This document shows positions 3,005-35,813 of a stretch of 35,991 nt of DNA, piece by piece. The stretch lies in the UHGV virus genome UHGV-0222783; one strand, given 5' to 3'. The notes beneath the pieces were generated by a model. It made no database searches and was not told the DNA's origin. It saw only the letters and a list, made by a program, of their open reading frames with translations. How positions within the stretch are numbered: position 1 is the first letter of the stretch; each line of letters starts with the position of its first letter. A program made the position numbers and the translations under genes. The stretch comes from a virus.

Positions 3005-3475
3005 CTAGTAGAATACCCAATTTTCTGTTTCTTGGTTGTGTCCAAAGTTATATTCAATATCTGGTGTTGATGTATCAATATTCTTCATCCCATCAACAAG
3101 AGTTGATACAACAGCCAAATCTTGTTTGATTCTCATTAAATGGTATTTCTTCCGGCGCAATAAACTTTCAATGGCAAGTTTCTTCGTTGGGAATGCAAAA
3201 GATCTTTCTGCATTTTTTGCTACTTTCTTAATTGCATATCTATTTCTCTTTTGTTTCCATTCCTGTAACCACTGATTTGGTGCTGGTTTAAAATTAACAA
3301 TCCAATGCGCAGGAACCAACCATGCATAATGCTCTGTCTGATGAAAAGCTATATATTGAAGTGCGAATATTTTGATTCCATCTTCTTCAACTGTCGCCTG
3401 GAATCTCCAGAAAACAGGCATTCCATCATGTTCAGTTTCTGATTCAGGAAAAGGTACGCTCCATGATTTTGTCAT
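3005..3475 (-). CDS. hypothetical protein (156 aa), PL-operon accessory gene
   Basis: ORF track; ATG at 3475 with GAGGTGA SD. No family recognised by eye. Confidence 0.5.
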   Translation of the reverse strand: MTKSWSVPFPESETEHDGMPVFWRFQATVEEDGIKIFALQYIAFHQTEHYAWLVPAHWIVNFKPAPNQWLQEWKQKRNRYAIKKVAKNAERSFAFPTKKLAIESLLRRKKYHLMRIKQDLAVVSTLVDGMKNIDTSTPDIEYNFGHNQETENWVFY

Positions 3476-12917: not shown

Positions 12918-13241
12918 ATGAAGATGCCAGAAAAACATGACCTGTTAGCCGCCATTCTCGCGGCAAAGGAACAAGGCATCGGGGCAATCCTTGCGTTTGC
13001 AATGGCGTACCTTCGCGGCAGATATAATGGCGGTGCGTTTACAAAAACAGTAATCGACGCAACGATGTGCGCCATTATCGCCTGGTTCATTCGTGACCTT
13101 CTCGACTTCGCCGGACTAAGTAGCAATCTCGCTTATATAACGAGCGTGTTCATCGGCTACATCGGCACTGACTCGATAGGTTCGCTTATCAAACGCTTCG
13201 CTGCTAAAAAAGCCGGAGTAGAAGATGGTGGAAATCAATAA
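12918..13241 (+). CDS. S: class I holin S (lambda S107/S105 type, dual-start MKM)
   Basis: [45 protein letters not shown]... matches lambda S as recalled. Dual-start motif Met1-Lys2-Met3. Confidence 0.95.
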
Positions 13242-13701
13242 TCAACGTAAGGCGTTCCTCGATATGCTGGCGTGGTCAGAGGGAACTGATAACGGACGTC
13301 AGAAAACCAGAAATCATGGTTATGACGTCATTGTTGGCGGAGAGCTATTCACTGATTACTCCGATCACCCTCGCAAACTTGTCACGCTAAACCCCAAACT
13401 CAAATCAACAGCAGCCGGACGTTACCAGCTTCTTTCCCGTTGGTGGGATGCCTATCGTAAGCAGCTTGGCCTGAAAGACTTCTCTCCTAAAAGCCAGGAT
13501 GCTGTTGCATTGCAGCAGATTAAGGAGCGTGGCGCTTTGCCGATGATTGATCGCGGTGATATCCGTCAGGCTATCGACCGTTGCAGCAATATCTGGGCTT
13601 CACTGCCGGGCGCTGGTTATGGTCAGTTCGAGCATAAGGCTGACAGCCTGATTGCAAAATTCAAAGAGGCTGGCGGAACGGTCAGAGAGATTGAGGTATG
13701 A
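13225..13701 (+). CDS. R: endolysin R (lytic transglycosylase, lambda R type)
   Basis: 158 aa, [45 protein letters not shown]... matches lambda R as recalled. Confidence 0.95.
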
Positions 13702-14135
13702 GCAGAGTAACCGCGATTATCTCCGCTCTGGTTATTTGCTTCATCGTCTGCCTGTCATGGGCTGTTAATCATTACCGTGATAACGCCATCGCCTACAAAG
13801 AACAGCGTGATAAGGCCGCATCCACAATTGCTGACATGCAGAAGCGTCAACGTGATGTAGCAGAACTCGACGCCAGATACACAAAGGAGCTTGCTGATGC
13901 TAACGCGACTATCGAAAGTCTCCGTGCTGATGTTTCTGCTGGGCGTAAGCGCCTGCAAGTCGCCGCCACCTGTGCAAAGTCAACGACCGGAGCCAGCAGC
14001 ATGGGCGATGGAGAAAGCCCAAGACTTACAGCAGATGCTGAACTCAATTATTACCGTCTCCGAAGTGGAATCGACAGGATAACCGCGCAGGTTAACTACC
14101 TGCAGGAATACATCAGGACGCAATGCCTTCGATGA
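13698..14135 (+). CDS. Rz: spanin inner-membrane subunit Rz
   Basis: N-terminal TM segment, coiled-coil body; similar to lambda Rz ([14 protein letters not shown]...[10 protein letters not shown]). Confidence 0.85.
13897..14082 (+). CDS. Rz1: spanin outer-membrane lipoprotein Rz1 (embedded in Rz, +1 frame)
   Basis: ATG 13897 after AAGGAG. Signal peptide with lipobox ...LLGVSAC, Pro-rich mature part ([13 protein letters not shown]); fully nested in Rz. Confidence 0.8.
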
Positions 14136-25500: not shown

Positions 25501-26952
25501 ATGGCTACGTGGCAACAGGGTATTAATTCTGGTGGGTTTCTGGCTGGCATCGGTACGCAAAATGAGAATGCGCCAAAGGCAAGCGACATTAACGCAACGC
25601 TTGGTCTGATCCGCGAAAACAATGAACTGGCTCGATCAGGTGCAAATAACGTTGCTCTGACAGGTCTTCGTGGTCTGGCTGGAGTTGCTGATATTTATAA
25701 GCAGCAGCAAAAGCAGGAGCGTAAAGCGGCATTCCAGAAAGGTTATGCGGATGCTTATGCGTCCGGCGACAGGGAGCAGATGCGTAATCTTATTACAGCA
25801 TTCCCCGAAGAGTTTGAGGAAGTCCGTAAAGGCATGGGGTATGTCGATGACGCCCAGCGGGATGATTTTGGCAATCTGGCGCTTAAGGCTCAGGTCGCTT
25901 CGTCGCTTGGTCCGGGTGCATTTGGCAGGTTCATGATGGATAACGAAAAGGAGATGCGTCGTTTAGGTATCCCTCCAGAAACTATTGCGGAAATGCAGGT
26001 TAATGACCCGCAGGGCTTCCAGCACTTCGCAGGTAATCTGGCACTATTTTCTCTCGGTCATGAGAAGTATTTCGATATCAAAGATCAAATGGAAGGTCGG
26101 GATATTGAGCGTGGCAAGTTGGCAGAGACGATTCGCAGCAATAAAGCTGGGGAAGGTTTAAAGGCGCAAAGCATTGCTGTTAGCCGTGAAAACTCCCTGC
26201 GCACTGCTGGAGGTGCTGTTCCTGCATCTGTTAAAGAATATCAATATTTCAACAGCCTGTCTCCAGAGCAACAAAAGACATATCTTCGTGTTCGAGGTCG
26301 TCCTGATGCTGGCGGGGAGAATGTTGTGCAACTGGCAGATGGCAGAACGGTAACGGTTGGTAGGAAGCTTCACGGCGCTGGTGCTAATGCGTTCTACGAA
26401 GGAATAGACAACGAGGGCAATATGATTCGCGTCCCCGCCAGTTCTATTGCTGCTCCGGCTACATCGGCAGCTAATGCACAGAATTACGAAATGAAGAAAG
26501 ATCTTGATGCAATTTCTGGCGCATCAATTGACGATCTTGGCTTCATGACAGGTATTACAGGTTCTTCAGGTTCTTTTGCTCTTGGTGCAGATATTCGTAG
26601 CAGGGCATCTGGTGTTGAGGAGAGGAGGCTATACAACGCTGCACAGCGAATCATGGGCAAAATGCAAAATCAGGGGATTGCAGCAGCCCGAGATATGGGG
26701 GCATCTGGCATCAACACCGAAGCAGAGGCCAATAGGTATTTTCAGGGTATGCCAAAGCCTGATTTCTCAAGTCCTGAAGCGCTGCAACAATCAATGCGCG
26801 ACATTCAGCAATATACCGACAATTACAACCAGCAATATAACGTTAATGTTGGTAATGGCGGGAAGAAATCATCAAGGCAACAGCCAGCTACTCAGCAATC
26901 AGCAGGAGGTAGCTACACGTCAAAATCAGGCATTCAATTTACGGTGGAATGA
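25501..26952 (+). CDS. ejection protein (P22 gp20-like)
   Basis: 483 aa, gene order. Confidence 0.6.
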
Positions 26953-28964
26953 TGAAAGTAACTGCAAATGGTAAGACATTTACCTTTCCTGATGGTACGA
27001 GCACGGAAGATATTGGGTCCGCCATTGATGAGTATTTTGCTGGTCAGTCAGCGCCAACACAACAAGGTGTTCAGCAATCGCCAGCAGACAACTCACTTGC
27101 ATCAGGATATGCACAGCTTGCCACTCAGCAGAAGGAAGGACTAGATCGCTCTGCTGAGCAAGGGGCTGTTTTAGGTGCTGCAATGCGCGATGCCGTTACC
27201 GGTGAAAGCCGAATGACACCAGAAATGGAGAGACTGCAAAATGTTGGGGCTGCCCCTGAGTTGAACTCACTAAGCATGGATGCCCTGAAGGCTGGATGGT
27301 CTCAACTTTTCGGCTCCGACGCGTCTCAGGAAAAGATTCTTCAGAGTATGGGGGCGAAATTAAGGCAGGATGAGAAGGGTAACACTATCGTTTCCCTGCC
27401 ATCCGGTGATTATGCCCTGAACAAGCCAGGTTTATCACCGCAAGACCTGACTTCGTTTCTTGCTAATGCGTTAGCGTTCACACCAGCGGGCAGGGCTGGA
27501 ACGGTGCTTGGTGCCATAGGGAAATCAGCTGCTACAGATTTAGCACTACAGGGTGGCACCAGCCTTGCTGGCGGAGAAGATATTGATCCTGCACAAACGG
27601 TAATTTCTGCTGGCATTGGTGGTGTTGGCAAGGGGCTGGAAAATACAGTTAGTGCGGTTTCCAGGGCTGTTCGCGGTGAGATGTCACCGGAAGCAAAGGC
27701 TGCTGTCGATTTTGCGTCGGAAAGAAACCTGCCGTTAATGACCAGTGACACGCTGAAAGATAAAACCTTTATGCAGAGTCAGGCTCAGACATTAGGCGAA
27801 AGAGTTCCTTTTTTTGGAACCGGTAAGAATCGGCTGAATCAACAACAAGCACGAGAAAATTTAGTCAGAACATTTAGCGATGGTCTGGGTGGCATTTCTG
27901 ATAAACAGCTTTATGAATCTGCGACTAAAGGGCAACAAAAATTCATTGAGGCAGCAGGAAAGCGATATAACCGCATAATTGACGCTATGGGGGATACCCC
28001 TGTCGATCTCTCAAACACGGTAAAAGCTATCGACAATCAGATTGCCGTGTTAAGCCGCCCGGGCAAATCTCAGGATAGAGCCGCGGTAAAAGTCTTGCAG
28101 CAATTTAAAGACGATATCACCAGCGGACCCAATGACCTGCGTCTGGCGAGAGAAAACAGAACTGACCTTCGAAAGCGGTTCATGAATTCAAACGAGACTG
28201 TTGATAAAGACACGCTCCAGAAAGCCAGCGATATTGTCTACAAGGCATATACAGCGGATATGAAAAAAGCAGTATCCCAAAAACTAGGCTCAGAAGAAGC
28301 TGCCAATATGTCTAGGGTTGATCGCTCATGGGCTAGATTCAATGACATGATGGGAAGAACGCGCGTTCAAAAGGCAATAGCCAGCGGCAAGGCTACACCT
28401 GAGGATGTAACAAAACTCGTTTTTAGCCAAAACCCATCAGAACGTTCTCAGCTTTACAGGCTTCTGGATGACAATGGTAGGCAAAACGCACGAGCAGCCA
28501 TAGTTCAGAATGCTGTAGATAAGGCGACTGATCCGTCTGGAAATATTAGTGTTGAAAAGTTTATTAATGCGTTACACCGGAACAGGAAGCAATCAGCAAC
28601 TTTCTTTAAAGGCGTACATGGAAAGGAACTGGACGGCGTTATTAAATACCTCAACGATACAAGACACGCGGCAAAAGCGAACGTTCAAAACTTAAATGGT
28701 CAGCAGCTTTATGGATTGTTAGTTGGTGGTGGCATCATAAACGCAGCAGTATTAGCGGGGATGCTAAAAACGGCTGCGTTTGTTGTTCCTGCTGCTGGTG
28801 TCGTAGGAGGAGCTGCGAAGGCATACGAAAGCCCTGTTATACGAAATGCCTTGTTACGTCTGGCAAATACGCCAAAAGGTAGCACAGCATATGACAGAGC
28901 GATCAGTACGGTCACACAATCGCTCACCAGAGTCGCACAGGCATCACAAAAAGAAGCTCAATAA
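26949..28964 (+). CDS. ejection protein (P22 gp16-like)
   Basis: 671 aa, gene order; C-terminal hydrophobic Gly-rich segment ([34 protein letters not shown]). Confidence 0.6.
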
Positions 28965-28981
28965 CTGGCAGCCACGGATGG

Positions 28982-29332
28982 CTAATTTTTATTCTTTGAT
29001 CTCGTCCACAGGTAAAGAAGAGCAATGGCAAGACAGGAAACAGAGAATAGATAACCTACCTCATATGGTGCGCCAAAAAAATTAGCTATTGATACGGGCA
29101 AAAAAGCCGAAGCGATCAGAATTGAAAGGCAAAAAATAAGCCCAGTAACATAGTTTATTAAACTCTTAAATGAGAAACGTTTTGCTTGATTTACGGTCTC
29201 AGCGAGTGATCGCTTAACGATGGATAAAAGCAAATAGATGGCGACAGTAGCTAATGCCCCTTTCCACCAGTCTGGATATAGTTTTGCGACAATCAGCCCA
29301 AGGAAAACCATGATGACAGACTGAGCATTCAC
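28982..29332 (-). CDS. small polytopic inner-membrane protein (116 aa); candidate superinfection-exclusion protein by position
   Basis: GTG start at 29332 preceded by a perfect AAGGAGGT SD; about four hydrophobic helices. Sits where P22-like phages carry sieA-type exclusion genes. Confidence 0.5.
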   Translation of the reverse strand: MNAQSVIMVFLGLIVAKLYPDWWKGALATVAIYLLLSIVKRSLAETVNQAKRFSFKSLINYVTGLIFCLSILIASAFLPVSIANFFGAPYEVGYLFSVSCLAIALLYLWTRSKNKN

Positions 29333-29507
29333 ACCAACCTCCTTAGTTTTGCGCAGGATACCAGATGATGTATAGGAGTGGGAGTAAAGTTAGTCGGTGA
29401 TAGAACGGTGGTTGCATAATGATATCACGTGACGTAAACTTATTGCGCATAGCGTGTATTCAATGGATGCATAGCTATTGATAATCTCCGATAAGAAGGA
29501 GGTTTGT

Positions 29508-30074
29508 ATGAGCAATGAGACTAATGGGATTGATGAAATGTTTAGCTTGAACGCTGCCAAAGCTGGAGTCGCAATAGGTTTGCTATTACAGCAAGCTTCT
29601 GCGTTCAGTTGTGAGGTGGTTGTTACTGATAACGTTCAGCACGCTTACCATCAATCCTCATTCAGCAGTGAACGGGCTAATGATGAGCTTCATGAGGCGG
29701 TGTCTTCGATTAAAGAATTGTCTCGAATGCTGAAATACGCTTATCGTGTTCTTGCAAACGCTACCGATGAGAATGTAGACAATGTGTTGTCTATCATTGA
29801 ACCAGAAAAGTCTCGATTGATAGAGCATCAATTGAGAGGACTTGAAGGGGCAATGAAATCGGTATTCAAAGAAGCTTCTGCTGATTTTAAAGAGATCGCA
29901 AGAGATATCTATATCGTTGTTGCTGATGCCAGATCTGCCGTAACCAACCTGAATAGTCTTATTAAACAACGCTCATGTGTTCCGGTTGTTTTTGATAGTT
30001 CCGTAGATATGGCTGGTTTGCGTGCGCTTGCTGAGCACGGGACTCGTGTGTTTCACTCTGGTAACTTCCACTGA
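29508..30074 (+). CDS. hypothetical protein (188 aa), first gene of an accessory two-gene operon
   Basis: ATG 29508 after strong SD AAGGAGG. Predicted helical; no family recognised by eye. Confidence 0.5.
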   Translation: MSNETNGIDEMFSLNAAKAGVAIGLLLQQASAFSCEVVVTDNVQHAYHQSSFSSERANDELHEAVSSIKELSRMLKYAYRVLANATDENVDNVLSIIEPEKSRLIEHQLRGLEGAMKSVFKEASADFKEIARDIYIVVADARSAVTNLNSLIKQRSCVPVVFDSSVDMAGLRALAEHGTRVFHSGNFH

Positions 30075-30082
30075 GGTAAAAC

Positions 30083-30532
30083 ATGCAAGTAACCGTGGAA
30101 TATAATCAGGATAGTTTTGACTATTTTTTCTCCCCGGTTTTTGTTGAGTTTCCTGATTTAAAACAAACACTTGTAGATGATTTTATCATCTACAAGTCTA
30201 CGGGAACGTTGCCCAGCTATTTTGGCAGAGACACCTCTTATCATCGACCTCCTGATATTGAAGATGCAGGCCTTATGCACCTTCATTTAGCAATTGGTGA
30301 AAATAAATTTGAGCCAATAAAAAATGGCACAGATATCAGCACACCGCAAAAGTTGCAGTGGCATAAAACATCCAATACCGCTCTCGTTTATGCACAAAAT
30401 CTTTTTGATGAGAACAGGTATTCATTGATTGCTCTTTTTCATCCTGTAGCTCACATGTCTGCTAACAATCATAATAGAATGAGAGTGTTAGCAGGGTATG
30501 CGAGAGACTTTAGAAACACTATGTTTGACTAA
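30083..30532 (+). CDS. hypothetical protein (149 aa), second gene of the accessory operon
   Basis: ATG 30083, 8 nt after the upstream stop. His-rich motifs (HLHLA, FHPVAH). Followed by an intrinsic terminator. Confidence 0.5.
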   Translation: MQVTVEYNQDSFDYFFSPVFVEFPDLKQTLVDDFIIYKSTGTLPSYFGRDTSYHRPPDIEDAGLMHLHLAIGENKFEPIKNGTDISTPQKLQWHKTSNTALVYAQNLFDENRYSLIALFHPVAHMSANNHNRMRVLAGYARDFRNTMFD

Positions 30533-30580: not shown

Positions 30581-31117
30581 TCAAACAACCCACCAGTTTG
30601 CCTGATTGGATGCCAGCCTTGCAGTTTTTATGGAATTAATTATGCCATGCTCAAGAGCCTTGTTAGCATCCAAAATGGTCGAGTCTGCTATCAGGGATGC
30701 CCACCTAATATGGGTTCCGATGTCGATATTGAACGTCTCAACGAAGCGATCAAGATCGTTATCGAGGCATTTCCCGTACTCTCTCAATCTGGCATGGTCG
30801 GCGGCTGGGGAGGCAAAGCACCATAATAGAGGATGTAACAGGAATCTTGATAATGGGTTTGCGAAACGTTCTGAGCCAGCCAGGAAAACGATATTAGCTA
30901 TGGATTCAACATTGCTTATGTTGTGAGTTCTAACGGTAACAGGGAGTGACTTAAGAAAGTTATACGCAGTAAAGCCAGCAGCAGTTTCCCCTCCCTGACT
31001 TGATATATGGATATTTAATTCAGTTGCGCCTTGAGATAATGCGGTGAGACAGTGGTTCTGAAGTTGCCCAACAGTGGCAGTGTTAACAGGGCATAAGAAA
31101 TGAATTGTGTGCAGCAT
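30581..31117 (-). CDS. ClpP-family serine peptidase homolog (178 aa)
   Basis: By-eye alignment to E. coli ClpP: [23 protein letters not shown] vs [51 protein letters not shown] vs [32 protein letters not shown]. The catalytic Ser and His positions appear conserved. ATG overlaps the Mnt-like stop (TAATG). Confidence 0.6.
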   Translation of the reverse strand: [178 protein letters not shown]

Positions 31118-31365
31118 TATTTTTCATCCTTAGCATACATGGTCTTTAGCGTCTCAAGTAGCGCCTCTTTGAATTTATCAGCTTCTTGCTGAGCAAATGA
31201 CTCAACTGACTTTGGCGACCTATCTTCATCAATCGCGGCTTGCAAAATCATGACGATCTCGGAGTTAACAGAGCGACCATTTTTTGATGCTCTGACAGCA
31301 AGAGCCTCGCGTAAAGATTCAGGGATTCTTACCGTAGTTGGAGAAATTGACACACCCTTTGCCAT
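31117..31365 (-). CDS. Mnt/Arc-type ribbon-helix-helix repressor
   Basis: MAKGVSISPTTVRIPESLREALAVRASKNGRSVNSEIVMIL... is an RHH motif (compare P22 Mnt ..REKLKFRAEANGRSMNSELLQIV). ATG at 31365. Confidence 0.7.
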   Translation of the reverse strand: MAKGVSISPTTVRIPESLREALAVRASKNGRSVNSEIVMILQAAIDEDRSPKSVESFAQQEADKFKEALLETLKTMYAKDEK

Positions 31366-31388
31366 ATAACACCTTTGGTATTCAATTT

Positions 31389-31441
31389 GATAGCAAAGTG
31401 TATGCAAAAAAATTTTGACTAGATATACTCACTTTGCTATC
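31389..31441. promoter_or_regulatory. divergent promoter/operator region with 12-bp perfect inverted repeat
   Basis: gatagcaaagtg (31389..31400) and its reverse complement cactttgctatc (31430..31441) bracket a TTGACT -35-like hexamer, between divergent RHH repressor genes. Confidence 0.5.
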
Positions 31442-32867: not shown

Positions 32868-35813
32868 ATGACAGACATTACAGCCAATGTGATTGTATCG
32901 ATGCCTTCGCAACTCTTCACTATGGCGCGTTCTTTTAAAGCCGTAGCCAATGGCAAAATTTATATCGGTAAAATTGACACTGATCCTGTAAATACAGAAA
33001 ACCAGATTCAGGTCTATGTGGAGAATGAAGACGGTTCTCACGTTCCTGTTTCGCAACCAATAATCATTAACGCTGCTGGATATCCGGTATATAACGGACA
33101 GATTGCCAAATTCGTTACCGTGCAAGGCCATTCTATGGCTGTTTATGATGCGTATGGTGCGCAGCAGTTCTATTTTCCTAATGTGCTGAAGTATGATCCT
33201 GATCAGTTACGGCAGCAATTAGAAGACACAGATGGAGCGAATAAATACCCAAAACTTCAGATAGCAAGATGGAGAGACAGTTATGATGTAAGAGGTTGGG
33301 GGGCTATTGGTGATGGTGTTCATGATGATACATCAGCTCTATCAGAATTACTTTCTGTTGCAACAGGTGGTGAAAAGATAGATGGGCGAGGGCTTACTTT
33401 TAAAGTATCAACTCTTCCAGATGTCAGTCGATTTAAAAATGCTCGTTTTTTATTTGAGAGAATACCGGGTCAGCCTCTTTTTTATGCTTCTGAAGATTTT
33501 ATCCAGGGAGAGTTATTTAAAATTACAGATACACCGTGGTACAACGCCTGGACGCAGGATAAAACGTTTGTATATGACAATGTCATCTATGCGCCTTTTA
33601 TGGCTGGAGACCGCCATGGTGTAAATAACCTCCATGTTGCATGGGTTCGCTCAGGAGATGACGGGAAGACCTGGACAACGCCGGAATGGCTTACAGATTT
33701 ACATGAAAACTATCCCACAGTTAACTATCACTGCATGAGTATGGGGGTTGTCAGAAATCGCCTTTTTGCTGTAATTGAGACGCGGACCGTGAGCGGAAAT
33801 AAACTGCAGGTTGCAGAGTTGTGGGATCGCCCAATGAGTCGCAGCCTTCGCGTTTATGGTGGTATAACGAAAGCAGCAAATCAGCAAGTCGCTTATATTC
33901 GCATTACTGATCACGGATTATTTGCTGGTGATTTTGTCAACTTCTCAAACTCTGGTGTTACAGGTGTTACCGGGAATATGACGGTGACTACTGTTATTGA
34001 TAAAAATACTTTTACAGTTACGACGCAAAATACCCAGGATGTGGATCAGAATAACGAGGGTAGATACTGGAGTTTTGGTACATCATTTCACTCGTCACCA
34101 TGGAGAAAAACCAGTCTTGGAACTATTCCTTCTTTTGTTGACGGAAGCACTCCTGTTACTGAGATTCACAGTTTTGCGACGATTAGCGATAACAGTTTTG
34201 CTGTTGGCTACCATAATGGTGATATTGGTCCACGCGAGCTTGGGATACTCTATTTCTCTGATGCTTTCGGTTCTCCTGGTAGCTTTGTTCGCAGACGCAT
34301 ACCTGCAGAATATGAGGCGAATGCATCTGAGCCATGTGTAAAATATTATGATGGCATTCTGTATCTGACGACCAGGGGGACATTAAGTACTCAACCCGGT
34401 AGTTCATTGCACAGAAGCTCTGATTTAGGTACATCATGGAATTCTCTTCGCTTCCCAAATAATGTTCATCACTCAAACCTTCCTTTTGCCAAAGTTGGCG
34501 ATGAGCTGATTATTTTTGGCAGTGAGCGCGCATTTGGTGAGTGGGAAGGAGGAGAACCTGATAACCGTTATGCAGGAAATTATCCAAGAACATTTATGAC
34601 CAGAGTTAACGTCAATGAGTGGAGTCTGGATAATGTAGAGTGGGTTAATGTTACTGATCAGATTTATCAGGGCGGAATAGTTAACTCTGCGGTTGGTGTT
34701 GGTTCAGTTTGTATCAAAGACAACTGGCTGTACTACATTTTCGGTGGGGAAGACTTTCTAAACCCATGGAGCATAGGGGATAACAACAGAAAATATCCTT
34801 ATGTTCACGATGGTCACCCGGCTGATTTGTATTGTTTCAGGGTGAAAATTAAACAGGAAGAATTTGTTTCAAGGGATTTTGTCTACGGAGCCACTCCTAA
34901 CAGAACGCTTCCTACTTTTATGTCGACGTCAGGCGTGAGGACGGTTCCTGTACCCGTTGATTTCACAGATGATGTTGCCGTCCAGTCACTGACTGTCCAT
35001 GCAGGTACATCAGGACAAGTTCGCGCGGAAGTCAAACTTGAGGGTAATTACGCCATTATTGCGAAGAAAGTACCGTCTGATGATGTTACCGCTCAGAGAT
35101 TAATCGTTAGCGGAGGTGAAACAACGTCTTCAGCAGATGGTGCAATGATAACGTTGCATGGTTCCGGAAGCAGTACTCCACGTCGCGCGGTATATAACGC
35201 ACTCGAACATCTTTTTGAGAACGGAGATGTTAAACCTTATCTTGATAATGTAAATGCTCTTGGTGGTCCGGGAAACAGGTTCTCGACAGTTTATCTTGGC
35301 TCCAATCCTGTGGTTACCAGTGACGGAACATTAAAGACAGAGCCGGTCTCTCCTGACGAAGCATTGCTGGATGCCTGGGGTGACGTCAGGTATATCGCTT
35401 ATAAATGGCTGAACGCTGTCGCTATAAAGGGGGAAGAAGGGGCGAGGATACATCATGGTGTAATCGCGCAGCAACTTCGTGATGTTCTTATTTCTCACGG
35501 ACTCATGGAAGAAGAAAGCACAACATGCCGCTATGCCTTTCTTTGCTATGACGATTATCCCGCAGTATATGATGACGTCATTACTGGCCAAAGGGAAATG
35601 CCGCTGACTGATAATGACGGGAGCATCATTGTTGATGAGGATGATAATCCAGTGATGGTAATGGAAGACATCATTGAGCGCGTTGAAATAACGCCAGCAG
35701 GATCTAGATGGGGGGTCAGACCTGATCTCTTATTCTATATCGAGGCAGCATGGCAGCGCAGAGAAATAGAAAGAATAAAAGCTAGGTTAGACTTAATAGA
35801 AGGGAAGCACTAA
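32868..35813 (+). CDS. tailspike: P22-type N-terminal head-binding domain fused to an endosialidase with C-terminal intramolecular chaperone domain
   Basis: 981 aa. N-terminus [42 protein letters not shown] is the P22-like particle-binding domain. Sialidase Asp-box motifs SGDDGKTW and SSDLGTSW. C-terminal region resembles the self-cleaving chaperone domain of K1-phage endosialidases. Confidence 0.8.

What the first reader, a model, noticed from the sequence alone, without database searches (positions are those of the whole stretch)
28982..29332. Small polytopic membrane protein with a perfect Shine-Dalgarno at the sieA-equivalent position
A 116-aa protein with about four hydrophobic helices, encoded on the strand opposite the virion genes, starts at a GTG preceded by AAGGAGGT. 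P22-like phages place inner-membrane superinfection-exclusion proteins here that block DNA entry of incoming phage.
Basis: inference. Interest (0 to 1): 0.45.

Follow-up and report, generated by a model that had tools for sequence, protein, structure and literature searches.

The report
Unrelated membrane gene in sieA slot
A K1-specific P22-like prophage of E. coli carries a small four-helix membrane protein of unknown family in exactly the place, and behind exactly the same 34-base start signal, where phage P22 keeps its superinfection-exclusion gene sieA, so it is a good but untested candidate for a new phage-blocking protein.

Summary
Window 28982-29332 (-) is a real 116-aa gene: a GTG start 4 nt after AAGGAGGT, four predicted helices, a positive-inside pattern giving N-in/C-in, and dN/dS of 0.13-0.52.

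The 34 nt ending in the GTG (TGGTATCCTGCGCAAAACTAAGGAGGTTGGTGTG) match the leader of P22 sieA at all but one base. In 177 phage and metagenome loci the last 22 nt, matched exactly, precede 12 unrelated genes. Eleven of these encode proteins with a membrane or signal segment, and SieA is one of them. All sit just after the gp16 ejection-protein gene.

The protein is not a SieA homologue:
- hhalign probability is 1.9% against type A and 0.09% against type B.
- The FxRYPxEAxxFNK motif is absent.
- There is no PHROG, Pfam or PADLOC hit.

The family is tiny: 7 representatives among 1.84 billion proteins, all enterobacterial. Every relative whose locus I examined lies next to gp16, including inside PICI-like satellites that carry P22-type ejection genes.

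An exclusion function is plausible (about 0.4) but untested. Another cassette in this slot, phage L orf62, is not linked to exclusion. I rate it moderately interesting, as a non-homologous variant in a known locus.

The parts
28982..29332 (-). Coding sequence of the 116-aa four-helix membrane protein (GTG start at 29330-29332, TAG stop at 28982-28984).
   Evidence: ORF list and translation. dN/dS 0.13-0.52. Relatives conserve the MN.Q N-terminus. The exact protein is on at least 1000 contigs and is always named 'hypothetical'.
29330..29363 (-). Conserved 34-nt leader TGGTATCCTGCGCAAAACTAAGGAGGTTGGTGTG, ending in the start codon. It is the junction at which unrelated cassettes are joined.
   Evidence: It differs at one base from the leader of P22 sieA and is identical to that of a 68-aa signal-peptide gene in phage S.Kent 1-2-1. 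Across 56 combinations of 13 upstream types and 12 cassette families it is at least 90% conserved at every position except position 12. The last 22 nt were fixed by the search pattern; the 12 nt before them were not required.
29337..29344 (-). Shine-Dalgarno sequence AAGGAGGT, 4 nt upstream of the GTG.
   Evidence: 3 copies in the window, 0.73 expected; sequence.
29355..29363 (-). TGGTATCCT, a candidate extended -10 promoter element (TGnTATAAT-like). This is inference only.
   Evidence: It is at least 90% conserved in the leader without being part of the search pattern. The two-hexamer scan found no sigma-70 site on the minus strand. P22 sieA is functional with 85 bp of upstream DNA that includes this element (PMC10883804). 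The HS1 type-B sieA leader lacks it (CGGTGTTCT).
28970..28993 (+). Terminator-like hairpin AGCCACGGATGGCT plus T-tract at the end of the late-operon gp16 gene. It overlaps the stop codon and the last codons (KNKN) of the ORF.
   Evidence: The element TAG|CCATCCGTGGCT is kept at the 3' junction in distant relatives and behind other cassettes.
26949..28964 (+). gp16-type DNA ejection (DNA transfer) protein, the convergent neighbour. In P22 its homologue is one of the genetic targets of SieA.
   Evidence: PHROG 770, 29117 and 29864. RefSeq names it 'P22-gp16 family phage DNA ejection protein'. About 30% identical to P22 gp16 and 70% to phage N7.
29279..29326 (-). Helix 1 (aa 3-18), ending in the family's most conserved motif VAKLYPD.
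29216..29266 (-). Helix 2 (aa 23-39), followed by the K/R-rich cytoplasmic loop aa 40-56.
29078..29164 (-). Helix 3 (aa 57-85), the most hydrophobic segment.
29003..29065 (-). Helix 4 (aa 90-110), followed by the basic tail RSKNKN.
29364..29507 (.). Variable divergent intergenic region (upstream type 8 of 13) between the leader and the 188-aa/YafO-like operon. No promoter was identified.

Best explanation
This is a prophage accessory gene for a small inner-membrane protein: four helices, N- and C-termini in the cytoplasm, and two short conserved loops facing the periplasm.

Shown:
- It occupies the sieA cassette slot of a CUS-3-like, K1-specific, P22-like prophage.
- It is joined at its start codon to the same 34-nt leader (ribosome-binding site plus GTG) that P22 uses for sieA.
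- It is unrelated in sequence to SieA.

Inferred:
- It is made in the lysogen from that leader.
- Like SieA, it sits in the inner membrane and stops incoming P22-like phages after adsorption. It would do so by interfering with the trans-envelope DNA conduit built by the ejection proteins gp20 and gp16, so that superinfecting DNA does not enter.
- Its conserved periplasm-facing loops (YPDWW, and GAPYEV at the start of helix 4) are the likely contact surface.

The same gene has been carried, as a block with gp16, into PICI-like satellites, where it would serve the same purpose.
For: Position and leader:
- The gene is in the same place as P22 sieA, directly after gene 16 on the opposite strand.
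- It has the same 34-nt leader, Shine-Dalgarno sequence and GTG as P22 sieA. The type-B sieA of E. coli HS shares the leader up to AAGGAG.
- Both sieA types are experimentally proven injection blockers when expressed from 85-106 bp of their own upstream DNA (PMC10883804).

Cassette survey:
- Eleven of the 12 cassette families behind this leader carry a TM or signal segment, so the slot is used for envelope proteins.
- The downstream ORF was shown to be gp16-type in 89 of 114 loci by BLASTP, and by PHROG for representatives of the other two types.

The family and gp16:
- Every relative whose locus was examined, down to 37% identity in Serratia, lies 17-18 nt after a gp16 homologue.
- This includes an E. 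coli satellite that carries only genes 14-7-20-16 plus this gene.
- A satellite of the same backbone, EcCIMP1, gives unexplained superinfection immunity against its P22-like helper (PMC11773190).

The protein:
- Topology prediction is positive-inside.
- Conservation is concentrated in helix 1 and loop 1 (KLYP is invariant), while the cytoplasmic loop varies.
- Selection is purifying.
Against: - No homology to any SieA type and no SieA motif. The protein is 116 aa against 164-212 aa.
- No hit in PADLOC or PHROGs.
- Low-confidence model with no structural neighbour.
- The slot does not dictate function. Twelve unrelated genes use it, and one is soluble. The 62-aa cassette is the size of phage L orf62, and phage L is reported to lack known sie genes.
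- The EcCIMP1 island that gave the immunity phenotype carries a different gp16 allele followed by a lipoprotein, not this gene.
- No promoter was detected by the consensus scan.
- There is no expression or phenotype data for this protein.
- Adjacency to gp16 may be simple physical linkage.
Confidence: 0.4

Rival explanations
1. It is a prophage 'moron' membrane protein with an envelope function unrelated to phage exclusion. Examples would be modulating a host transporter or sensor, stress tolerance, or fitness of ExPEC/K1 strains. On this view it only borrows a convenient, promiscuous expression dock.
For: The dock serves 12 unrelated proteins of very different architecture, which argues against a single shared function. 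[quoted passage not shown] Phage L carries a cassette here yet is described as lacking sie functions. The exact protein is widespread in ExPEC/APEC genomes.
Against: There is no similarity to any host-interaction family. The family is restricted to the gp16-adjacent slot in every locus examined, including satellites that otherwise carry only ejection genes. The only characterised occupants of the slot are exclusion proteins.
Confidence: 0.3
2. It is an abortive-infection or membrane-depolarising effector of the RexB, SieB or holin type. It would kill or arrest the cell when a phage infects, rather than block DNA entry.
For: It is a small polytopic membrane protein. It has weak sub-threshold similarity to a holin family (Phage_holin_3_6, E 0.065, 13.7 bits against a cutoff of 28.4), and the top but non-significant BFVD neighbours include holins. 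It lies beside a YafO-family toxin gene and a ClpP-like protease gene.
Against: All the similarities are below threshold and typical of any TM protein. The prophage has its own lysis cassette elsewhere, at about 12918-14135 (the homologous HS1 genes are annotated holin, GH24 lysozyme and lysis protein). The YafO and ClpP-like neighbours are not conserved with the gene in other loci. No sensor partner is evident.
Confidence: 0.12
3. It serves the phage's own ejection proteins. It might act as a membrane immunity or chaperone factor against membrane-active gp16 and gp20 during late growth, or tune lysis or assembly, and be inherited with gp16 for that reason.
For: It is tightly adjacent to gp16 in every locus, and moved with genes 14-7-20-16 into satellites. 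In the first 122 phage and prophage loci surveyed it is found with only one gp16 C-terminal type, 7 of 7.
Against: It is on the opposite strand from the late operon and behind the lysogen-expressed sieA leader. Many P22-like phages have other cassettes, or none, next to gp16 and are viable. The 7 linked loci are near-identical prophages, so the linkage is not independent evidence. More divergent relatives sit beside gp16 alleles that are 63% identical (Serratia) or of different length (701 aa in E. coli).
Confidence: 0.08
4. It is not a functional gene but a chance hydrophobic frame.
For: Comparable hydrophobic frames occur by chance elsewhere in the window. There are no database family hits.
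Against: dN/dS is 0.13-0.21 at 71% identity. Full-length relatives exist at 37-38% identity with a conserved N-terminus. It has a perfect Shine-Dalgarno sequence shared with a proven gene. It is intact on at least 1000 contigs.
Confidence: 0.02

Closest known systems
P22 SieA (type A) and E. coli HS1 SieA (type B) superinfection-exclusion proteins
   Same: Same genomic slot, immediately after gene 16 on the opposite strand in a P22-like prophage. Same 5' leader, Shine-Dalgarno sequence and GTG start (type A), or the left part of the leader (type B). Polytopic inner-membrane architecture by prediction.
   Different: No detectable sequence or profile similarity. 116 aa against 164-212 aa. Lacks the cytoplasmic FxRYPxEAxxFNK motif and the large soluble loop. 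Exclusion activity is untested.
'ant moron' of P22-like phages (Villafane et al. 2008, PMC2629481), including phage L/ST64T orf62
   Same: The gene is one of the 'unique, unknown-function' genes of this known hypervariable region. The APEC-1 and UTI-1 prophage types mentioned there correspond to this window. A 62-aa cassette the size of orf62 uses the same leader.
   Different: As far as the papers I could read show, the earlier description did not report these points: many of the variable genes are joined at one invariant 34-nt leader exactly at the start codon; 11 of 12 alternatives are envelope proteins; the 116-aa family exists.
Other small inner-membrane injection blockers (T4 Imm, HK97 gp15)
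   Same: Small phage-encoded inner-membrane proteins that block DNA entry after adsorption. This is what the present protein would work like (from my own knowledge of these systems and the reference list).
   Different: No sequence relationship (no Pfam or PHROG hit). Different helix number and different phage groups.
EcCIMP1-type PICI satellites of E. coli (PMC11773190)
   Same: A variant 88% identical to the window protein lies in an island with the same backbone: int, AlpA, antirepressor, Icd-like, TOPRIM/DUF927 primase, genes 14-7-20-16, AlpA, PerC. EcCIMP1 confers unexplained superinfection immunity against its P22-like helper Kapi1.
   Different: The published EcCIMP1 has another gp16 allele followed by a 232-aa lipoprotein and lacks this gene. 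The phenotype therefore cannot be assigned to it.

Membership tests
SieA (P22-type superinfection exclusion protein, types A, B, C) | Detectable sequence or profile homology to SieA (PHROG 7745; Pfam PF26849). | tested here: not met
   BLASTP E 0.29. hhalign probability 1.9% against a type-A alignment and 0.09% against HS1 type B. No PHROG hit, while P22 SieA hits phrog_7745 at 9e-109. The local Pfam copy lacks PF26849 (the control failed), so Pfam is not a valid test. Type C was not tested.
SieA (P22-type superinfection exclusion protein, types A, B, C) | Conserved cytoplasmic motif FxRYPxEAxxFNK near the C-terminus. | tested here: not met
   A regex finds FGRYPGEANGFNK in P22 SieA and FNRYPGEARKFNK in HS1 SieA, and nothing in the 116-aa protein, even with a relaxed pattern. 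The motif definition is from PMC10883804.
SieA (P22-type superinfection exclusion protein, types A, B, C) | Size about 160-210 aa with 3-4 predicted TM helices. | tested here: inconclusive
   Four predicted helices match the helix number of types B and C, but the length is only 116 aa and the loop pattern differs.
SieA (P22-type superinfection exclusion protein, types A, B, C) | Located in a P22-like prophage between the homologues of genes 16 and 9. | tested here: met
   The gp16 homologue ends at 28964 and the tailspike (endosialidase with a P22 head-binding domain) is at 32868-35813. The layout is the same as P22.
SieA (P22-type superinfection exclusion protein, types A, B, C) | Uses the sieA 5' leader and translation start. 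| tested here: met
   The 34-nt leader matches P22 sieA at all but one base.
SieA (P22-type superinfection exclusion protein, types A, B, C) | Inner-membrane localisation, and a block of DNA injection by P22-like phages with escape mutations in gp16 and gp20. | not testable with these tools
   Needs fractionation, plating, K+ efflux assays and escape-mutant mapping as in PMC10883804.
Holins (e.g. Pfam Phage_holin_3_6) | Score above the family's gathering threshold. | tested here: not met
   13.7 bits against a cutoff of 28.4, E 0.065. BFVD fold matches to holins have E of at least 0.59.
Known anti-phage defence proteins (PADLOC-DB v2) | Match to any defence-system protein model. | tested here: not met
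   No family at E up to 0.01. P22 SieA is not covered by PADLOC either, so the library is blind to this class.
Cassette set behind the 22-nt leader CAAAACTAAGGAGGTTGGTGTG (defined here) | ORF starts at the GTG of the leader and lies convergent to a gp16-type gene. | tested here: met
   The window and 10 other of the 177 surveyed loci carry the 116-aa family behind the exact leader. The downstream ORFs are gp16-type in 89 of 114 loci by BLASTP, and by PHROG for representatives of the other two types.

The most novel reading that the evidence does not exclude
The 34-nt leader is a plug-in expression dock at the end of the P22-like ejection-gene cluster, and the 12 or more unrelated envelope proteins that use it are alternative superinfection-exclusion determinants. 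On this reading the 116-aa protein founds a new, non-homologous family of inner-membrane DNA-injection blockers matched to a distinct gp16 type. PICI satellites have captured the gp16-plus-blocker module to protect lysogens of their helper.
Probability: 0.25. Interest if true: 0.7.

Novelty: new variant of a known kind. Interest (0 to 1): 0.5.

Why it matters
SieA is one of the few injection-blocking proteins with a proposed target, the gp16/gp20 conduit, yet only a third of P22-like phages carry it.

If the unrelated proteins plugged into the same start signal are also exclusion factors, the slot offers a ready-made, easily cloned panel of about a dozen small envelope proteins. These could be used to study how podovirus DNA crosses the envelope. 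They would also help explain phage resistance patterns in ExPEC/K1 strains, where K1 phages are considered for therapy.

Independently of function, three results have practical value:
- The start-codon-precise junction is a clean example of how phage mosaic boundaries allow cassette exchange.
- The junction corrects the RefSeq start of this gene.
- The link to PICI satellites that carry ejection-protein genes gives a concrete candidate class for the unexplained EcCIMP1 immunity.

Tried and rejected
Family and homology searches that found nothing:
- Pfam, PHROGs, NCBIfam and PADLOC scans of the protein gave nothing above threshold.
- tblastn against 50,697 phage genomes gave no match, so the gene is known only from prophages and metagenomes.
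- An exhaustive profile search of 1.84 billion representatives gave only 7 hits, all the same small family.
- A PDB sequence search gave nothing.

Structure:
- Two AlphaFold runs gave pLDDT 57 and 62.
- A BFVD fold search on the better model gave no match with E up to 0.001. I ran no further search on a low-confidence model.

Controls and scans:
- Pfam as a SieA test was rejected because the local copy lacks PF26849; P22 SieA itself gave no hit.
- The promoter scan found no minus-strand sigma-70 site. The extended -10 proposal is my own reading.
- A scan of species-representative genomes for a 20-nt leader found nothing, presumably because the representatives lack such prophages.

Literature:
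- Hofer et al. 1995 and Casjens & Grose 2016 are not held, so I could not check the published PsieA position or any earlier mention of the leader.

Leads considered and rejected:
- A functional link to the neighbouring YafO-like toxin or ClpP-like protease, because these neighbours are not conserved with the gene.
- EcCIMP1 immunity as direct evidence, because that island lacks the gene.
- gp16-type linkage as evidence of co-adaptation, because the linked loci are near-identical.

Full report
WHAT IS THERE

The window is a P22-like (Lederbergvirus-type) prophage of extraintestinal pathogenic E. coli. The 601 bp around the finding are 100% identical in S88, APEC O1, ATCC 11775 and many ST95-type genomes. 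The tailspike at 32868-35813 is an endosialidase with a P22 head-binding domain, so this is a CUS-3-like, K1-specific phage.

It lies at 28982..29332 on the minus strand, encodes 116 aa and starts at GTG. AAGGAGGT sits 4 nt upstream, at 29337-29344. The ORF's stop lies 17 nt from the stop of the convergent gp16-type ejection protein gene, 26949-28964. RefSeq annotates a shorter 109-aa 'hypothetical protein' that starts at an internal ATG.

IS IT A REAL GENE AND A MEMBRANE PROTEIN?

- **Helices.** Kyte-Doolittle analysis gives four hydrophobic segments. Two AlphaFold runs give four helices, 3-18, 22/23-47/48, 55-85 and 90-114/115, but confidence is low: pLDDT 57 and 62.
- **Topology.** Basic residues are concentrated in loop 40-56 (5 K/R) and the C-terminal tail (3 K/R). 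The two short loops have none. This predicts both termini in the cytoplasm.
- **Caveat.** Hydrophobicity alone is not decisive, because two spurious frames in the window are as hydrophobic.
- **Selection.** dN/dS is 0.13-0.21 against a Yersinia relative and 0.34-0.52 among close E. coli variants.
- **Start codon.** Relatives only 37-38% identical (Serratia fonticola, Pluralibacter gergoviae and others) are full length and begin MN.Q. The two whose DNA I read (L125, L127) start at ATG.
- **Family size.** An exhaustive profile search of 1.84 billion representative proteins found 7 proteins. A word-indexed search of 5.8 billion found 19 clusters, all enterobacterial and all unnamed. No sequenced phage among 50,697 records carries it.

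THE KEY RESULT: THE SAME LEADER AS sieA

In P22, sieA occupies the same place, immediately after gene 16 on the opposite strand. Reading the P22 sequence shows that the 34 nt ending in the sieA GTG match the window sequence at all but one base: TGGTATCCTGC(A/G)CAAAACTAAGGAGGTTGGTGTG. Similarity stops at the start codon on one side and at TGGTATCC on the other. A Salmonella phage, S.Kent 1-2-1, has the same leader in front of a third, unrelated 68-aa signal-peptide gene. The type-B sieA of E. coli HS shares the leader up to AAGGAG.

I then searched public collections for the last 22 nt of the leader:
- The 177 complete ORFs that start at its GTG fall into just 12 unrelated families. The metagenome set added no new family.
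- SieA type A is one family (15 loci) and the window's family is another (11 loci).
- The others include a 62-aa two-helix protein (the size of the unnamed orf62 of phage L), several N-terminally anchored coiled-coil proteins, and several signal-peptide proteins.
- Eleven of the 12 have a TM or signal segment; one is soluble. None except SieA has an annotated function.
- Thirteen different upstream sequences combine with the 12 cassettes in 56 observed combinations. The 12 nt upstream of the searched pattern (TGGTATCCTGCn) are nevertheless conserved.
- Downstream, the cassettes abut a gp16-type gene. This was shown by BLASTP in 89 of 114 loci and by PHROG for representatives of the other two gp16 types. 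Often the hairpin TAG|CCATCCGTGGCT is retained.

The finding is therefore one allele of a cassette-exchange site whose 5' joint lies precisely at the start codon.

WHAT IT IS NOT

It is not a SieA homologue:
- BLASTP gives E 0.29.
- hhalign gives 1.9% against a type-A alignment and 0.09% against type B.
- The family motif FxRYPxEAxxFNK is present in both controls and absent here.
- There is no PHROG hit, while P22 SieA hits 'SieA-like' phrog_7745.
- Pfam could not serve as a test, because the local copy lacks the SieA model.

It also matches no holin family (sub-threshold only), no defence protein, no NCBIfam family, no solved structure and no viral predicted structure.

CONTEXT ELSEWHERE

Every relative whose locus I examined sits 17-18 nt after a gp16 homologue. 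Upstream neighbours vary: a ClpP-like gene, other small genes, or AlpA.

Unexpectedly, the common E. coli variant (88% identical) lies not in a prophage but in a PICI-like island. The island's gene order is integrase, AlpA, antirepressor, Icd-like, TOPRIM/DUF927 primase, then homologues of P22 genes 14, 7, 20 and 16, this gene, a second AlpA and PerC. About 130 of 5,426 complete E. coli genomes carry this junction.

The backbone is that of EcCIMP1, a satellite mobilised by the P22-like phage Kapi1. EcCIMP1 adds to superinfection immunity by an unknown mechanism (PMC11773190). However, EcCIMP1 itself has another gp16 allele followed by a 232-aa lipoprotein instead of this gene. That phenotype is therefore a lead, not evidence.

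HOW IT MOST LIKELY WORKS

Shown:
- It is a conserved, selected gene for a predicted four-helix inner-membrane protein.
- It sits in the sieA slot and is fused to the sieA translation start.

Inferred:
- It is expressed in the lysogen. P22 sieA works with 85 bp of upstream DNA that contains this leader. TGGTATCCT looks like an extended -10 element, but the consensus scan finds no promoter.
- It blocks incoming P22-like phages at the inner membrane, as SieA does by interfering with the gp20/gp16 conduit.
- The most conserved parts are helix 1 with the KLYP(D) turn, and the region around loop 3. Both are predicted to face the periplasm, while the cytoplasmic loop is variable. This fits a periplasm-side interaction.

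I put this mechanism at about 0.4. The main rival, at about 0.3, is an envelope function unrelated to phage exclusion. The dock is promiscuous, and phage L, which carries orf62 in this region (a 62-aa cassette uses the dock), is described as lacking sie functions. Abortive-infection or holin-like action (0.12), a role for the phage's own ejection proteins (0.08) and a spurious ORF (0.02) are less likely.

NOVELTY

The hypervariability of the gene 16 to gene 9 region (the 'ant moron') and the existence of unknown genes there, including in the APEC O1 and UTI89 prophages, were described in 2008. SieA's mechanism and its three homologous types were described in 2024.

What I did not find in the papers I could read:
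- the invariant start-codon-precise leader shared by sieA and 11 unrelated cassettes
- the near-exclusive use of the dock by envelope proteins
- this 116-aa family
- its presence in ejection-gene-bearing satellites

I could not read Hofer 1995 or Casjens & Grose 2016, so prior mention cannot be excluded. I rate it a new variant of a known kind, of moderate interest (0.5).

Noticed in passing
window 29508-30074 (+) and 30083-30532 (+): A two-gene operon divergent from the finding. It consists of a 188-aa protein of unknown function (phrog_8416) followed by a YafO-family toxin homologue (Pfam E 3e-22). It has its own perfect AAGGAGGT at 29496-29503. This could be a toxin-antitoxin or defence pair with a non-canonical upstream partner. 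The pair is absent from other loci that carry the 116-aa gene.
   Followed up: partly
window 30581-31117 (-) and 31117-31407 (-): A stand-alone ClpP-like serine protease gene (Pfam CLP_protease, 2e-11) whose start overlaps the stop of an Arc/Mnt-like ribbon-helix-helix gene, inside the immI-like region. In another prophage (L129) the same protease gene directly precedes the 116-aa gene, together with Peptidase_S9 and DUF805 genes.
   Followed up: partly
L134 (E. coli CDF6, NZ_CP158429.1 3813784-3842784), also L132 and L133: A PICI-like satellite (int, AlpA, antA/B, ash, Icd-like, TOPRIM/DUF927 primase) carries intact homologues of P22 genes 14, 7, 20 and 16 plus the 116-aa gene. Its backbone proteins match those of EcCIMP1 (L136). 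About 130 of 5,426 complete E. coli genomes carry the junction. A satellite that brings its own ejection proteins seems worth study in its own right.
   Followed up: partly
L136 12632-13330 (-) (E. coli MP1, EcCIMP1): In the published EcCIMP1, the position after a 908-aa transglycosylase-type gp16 allele is taken by a 232-aa lipoprotein (lipobox LLAGC) on the same strand. It is a candidate for the island's unexplained superinfection immunity.
   Followed up: no
window 29311-29332 (-); RefSeq WP_011703616.1: RefSeq starts the gene at an internal ATG (109 aa). Other gene callers extend homologues upstream to 129-151 aa. The shared leader and the conserved MN.Q N-terminus indicate that the 116-aa GTG start is correct.
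   Followed up: yes
L075 2351-2372 and 4116-4137 (+): One viral contig has two copies of the 22-nt leader about 1.8 kb apart, each in front of a different cassette (the 129-aa and 149-aa families). The dock can therefore be duplicated to give two cassettes in tandem.
   Followed up: no
L004 2536-2901 (+); P22 L003 about 3337-3390: In one common upstream type the leader abuts the start (CAT on the opposite strand) of a divergent 121-aa gene with an HExxH motif. In P22 the corresponding frame appears to be cut short after about 17 codons.
   Followed up: no
window 28970-28993 (+): The late-operon terminator hairpin and T-tract after gp16 overlap the stop codon and the last four codons (KNKN) of the minus-strand gene. 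The basic tail of the protein is therefore encoded by the terminator's T-run.
   Followed up: partly
Genome-contig scan: The 20-nt leader has no exact match in one-genome-per-species representatives of 185,579 species, although it is common in viral and metagenome contigs. This is probably a sampling effect of representative genomes, but I did not check.
   Followed up: no
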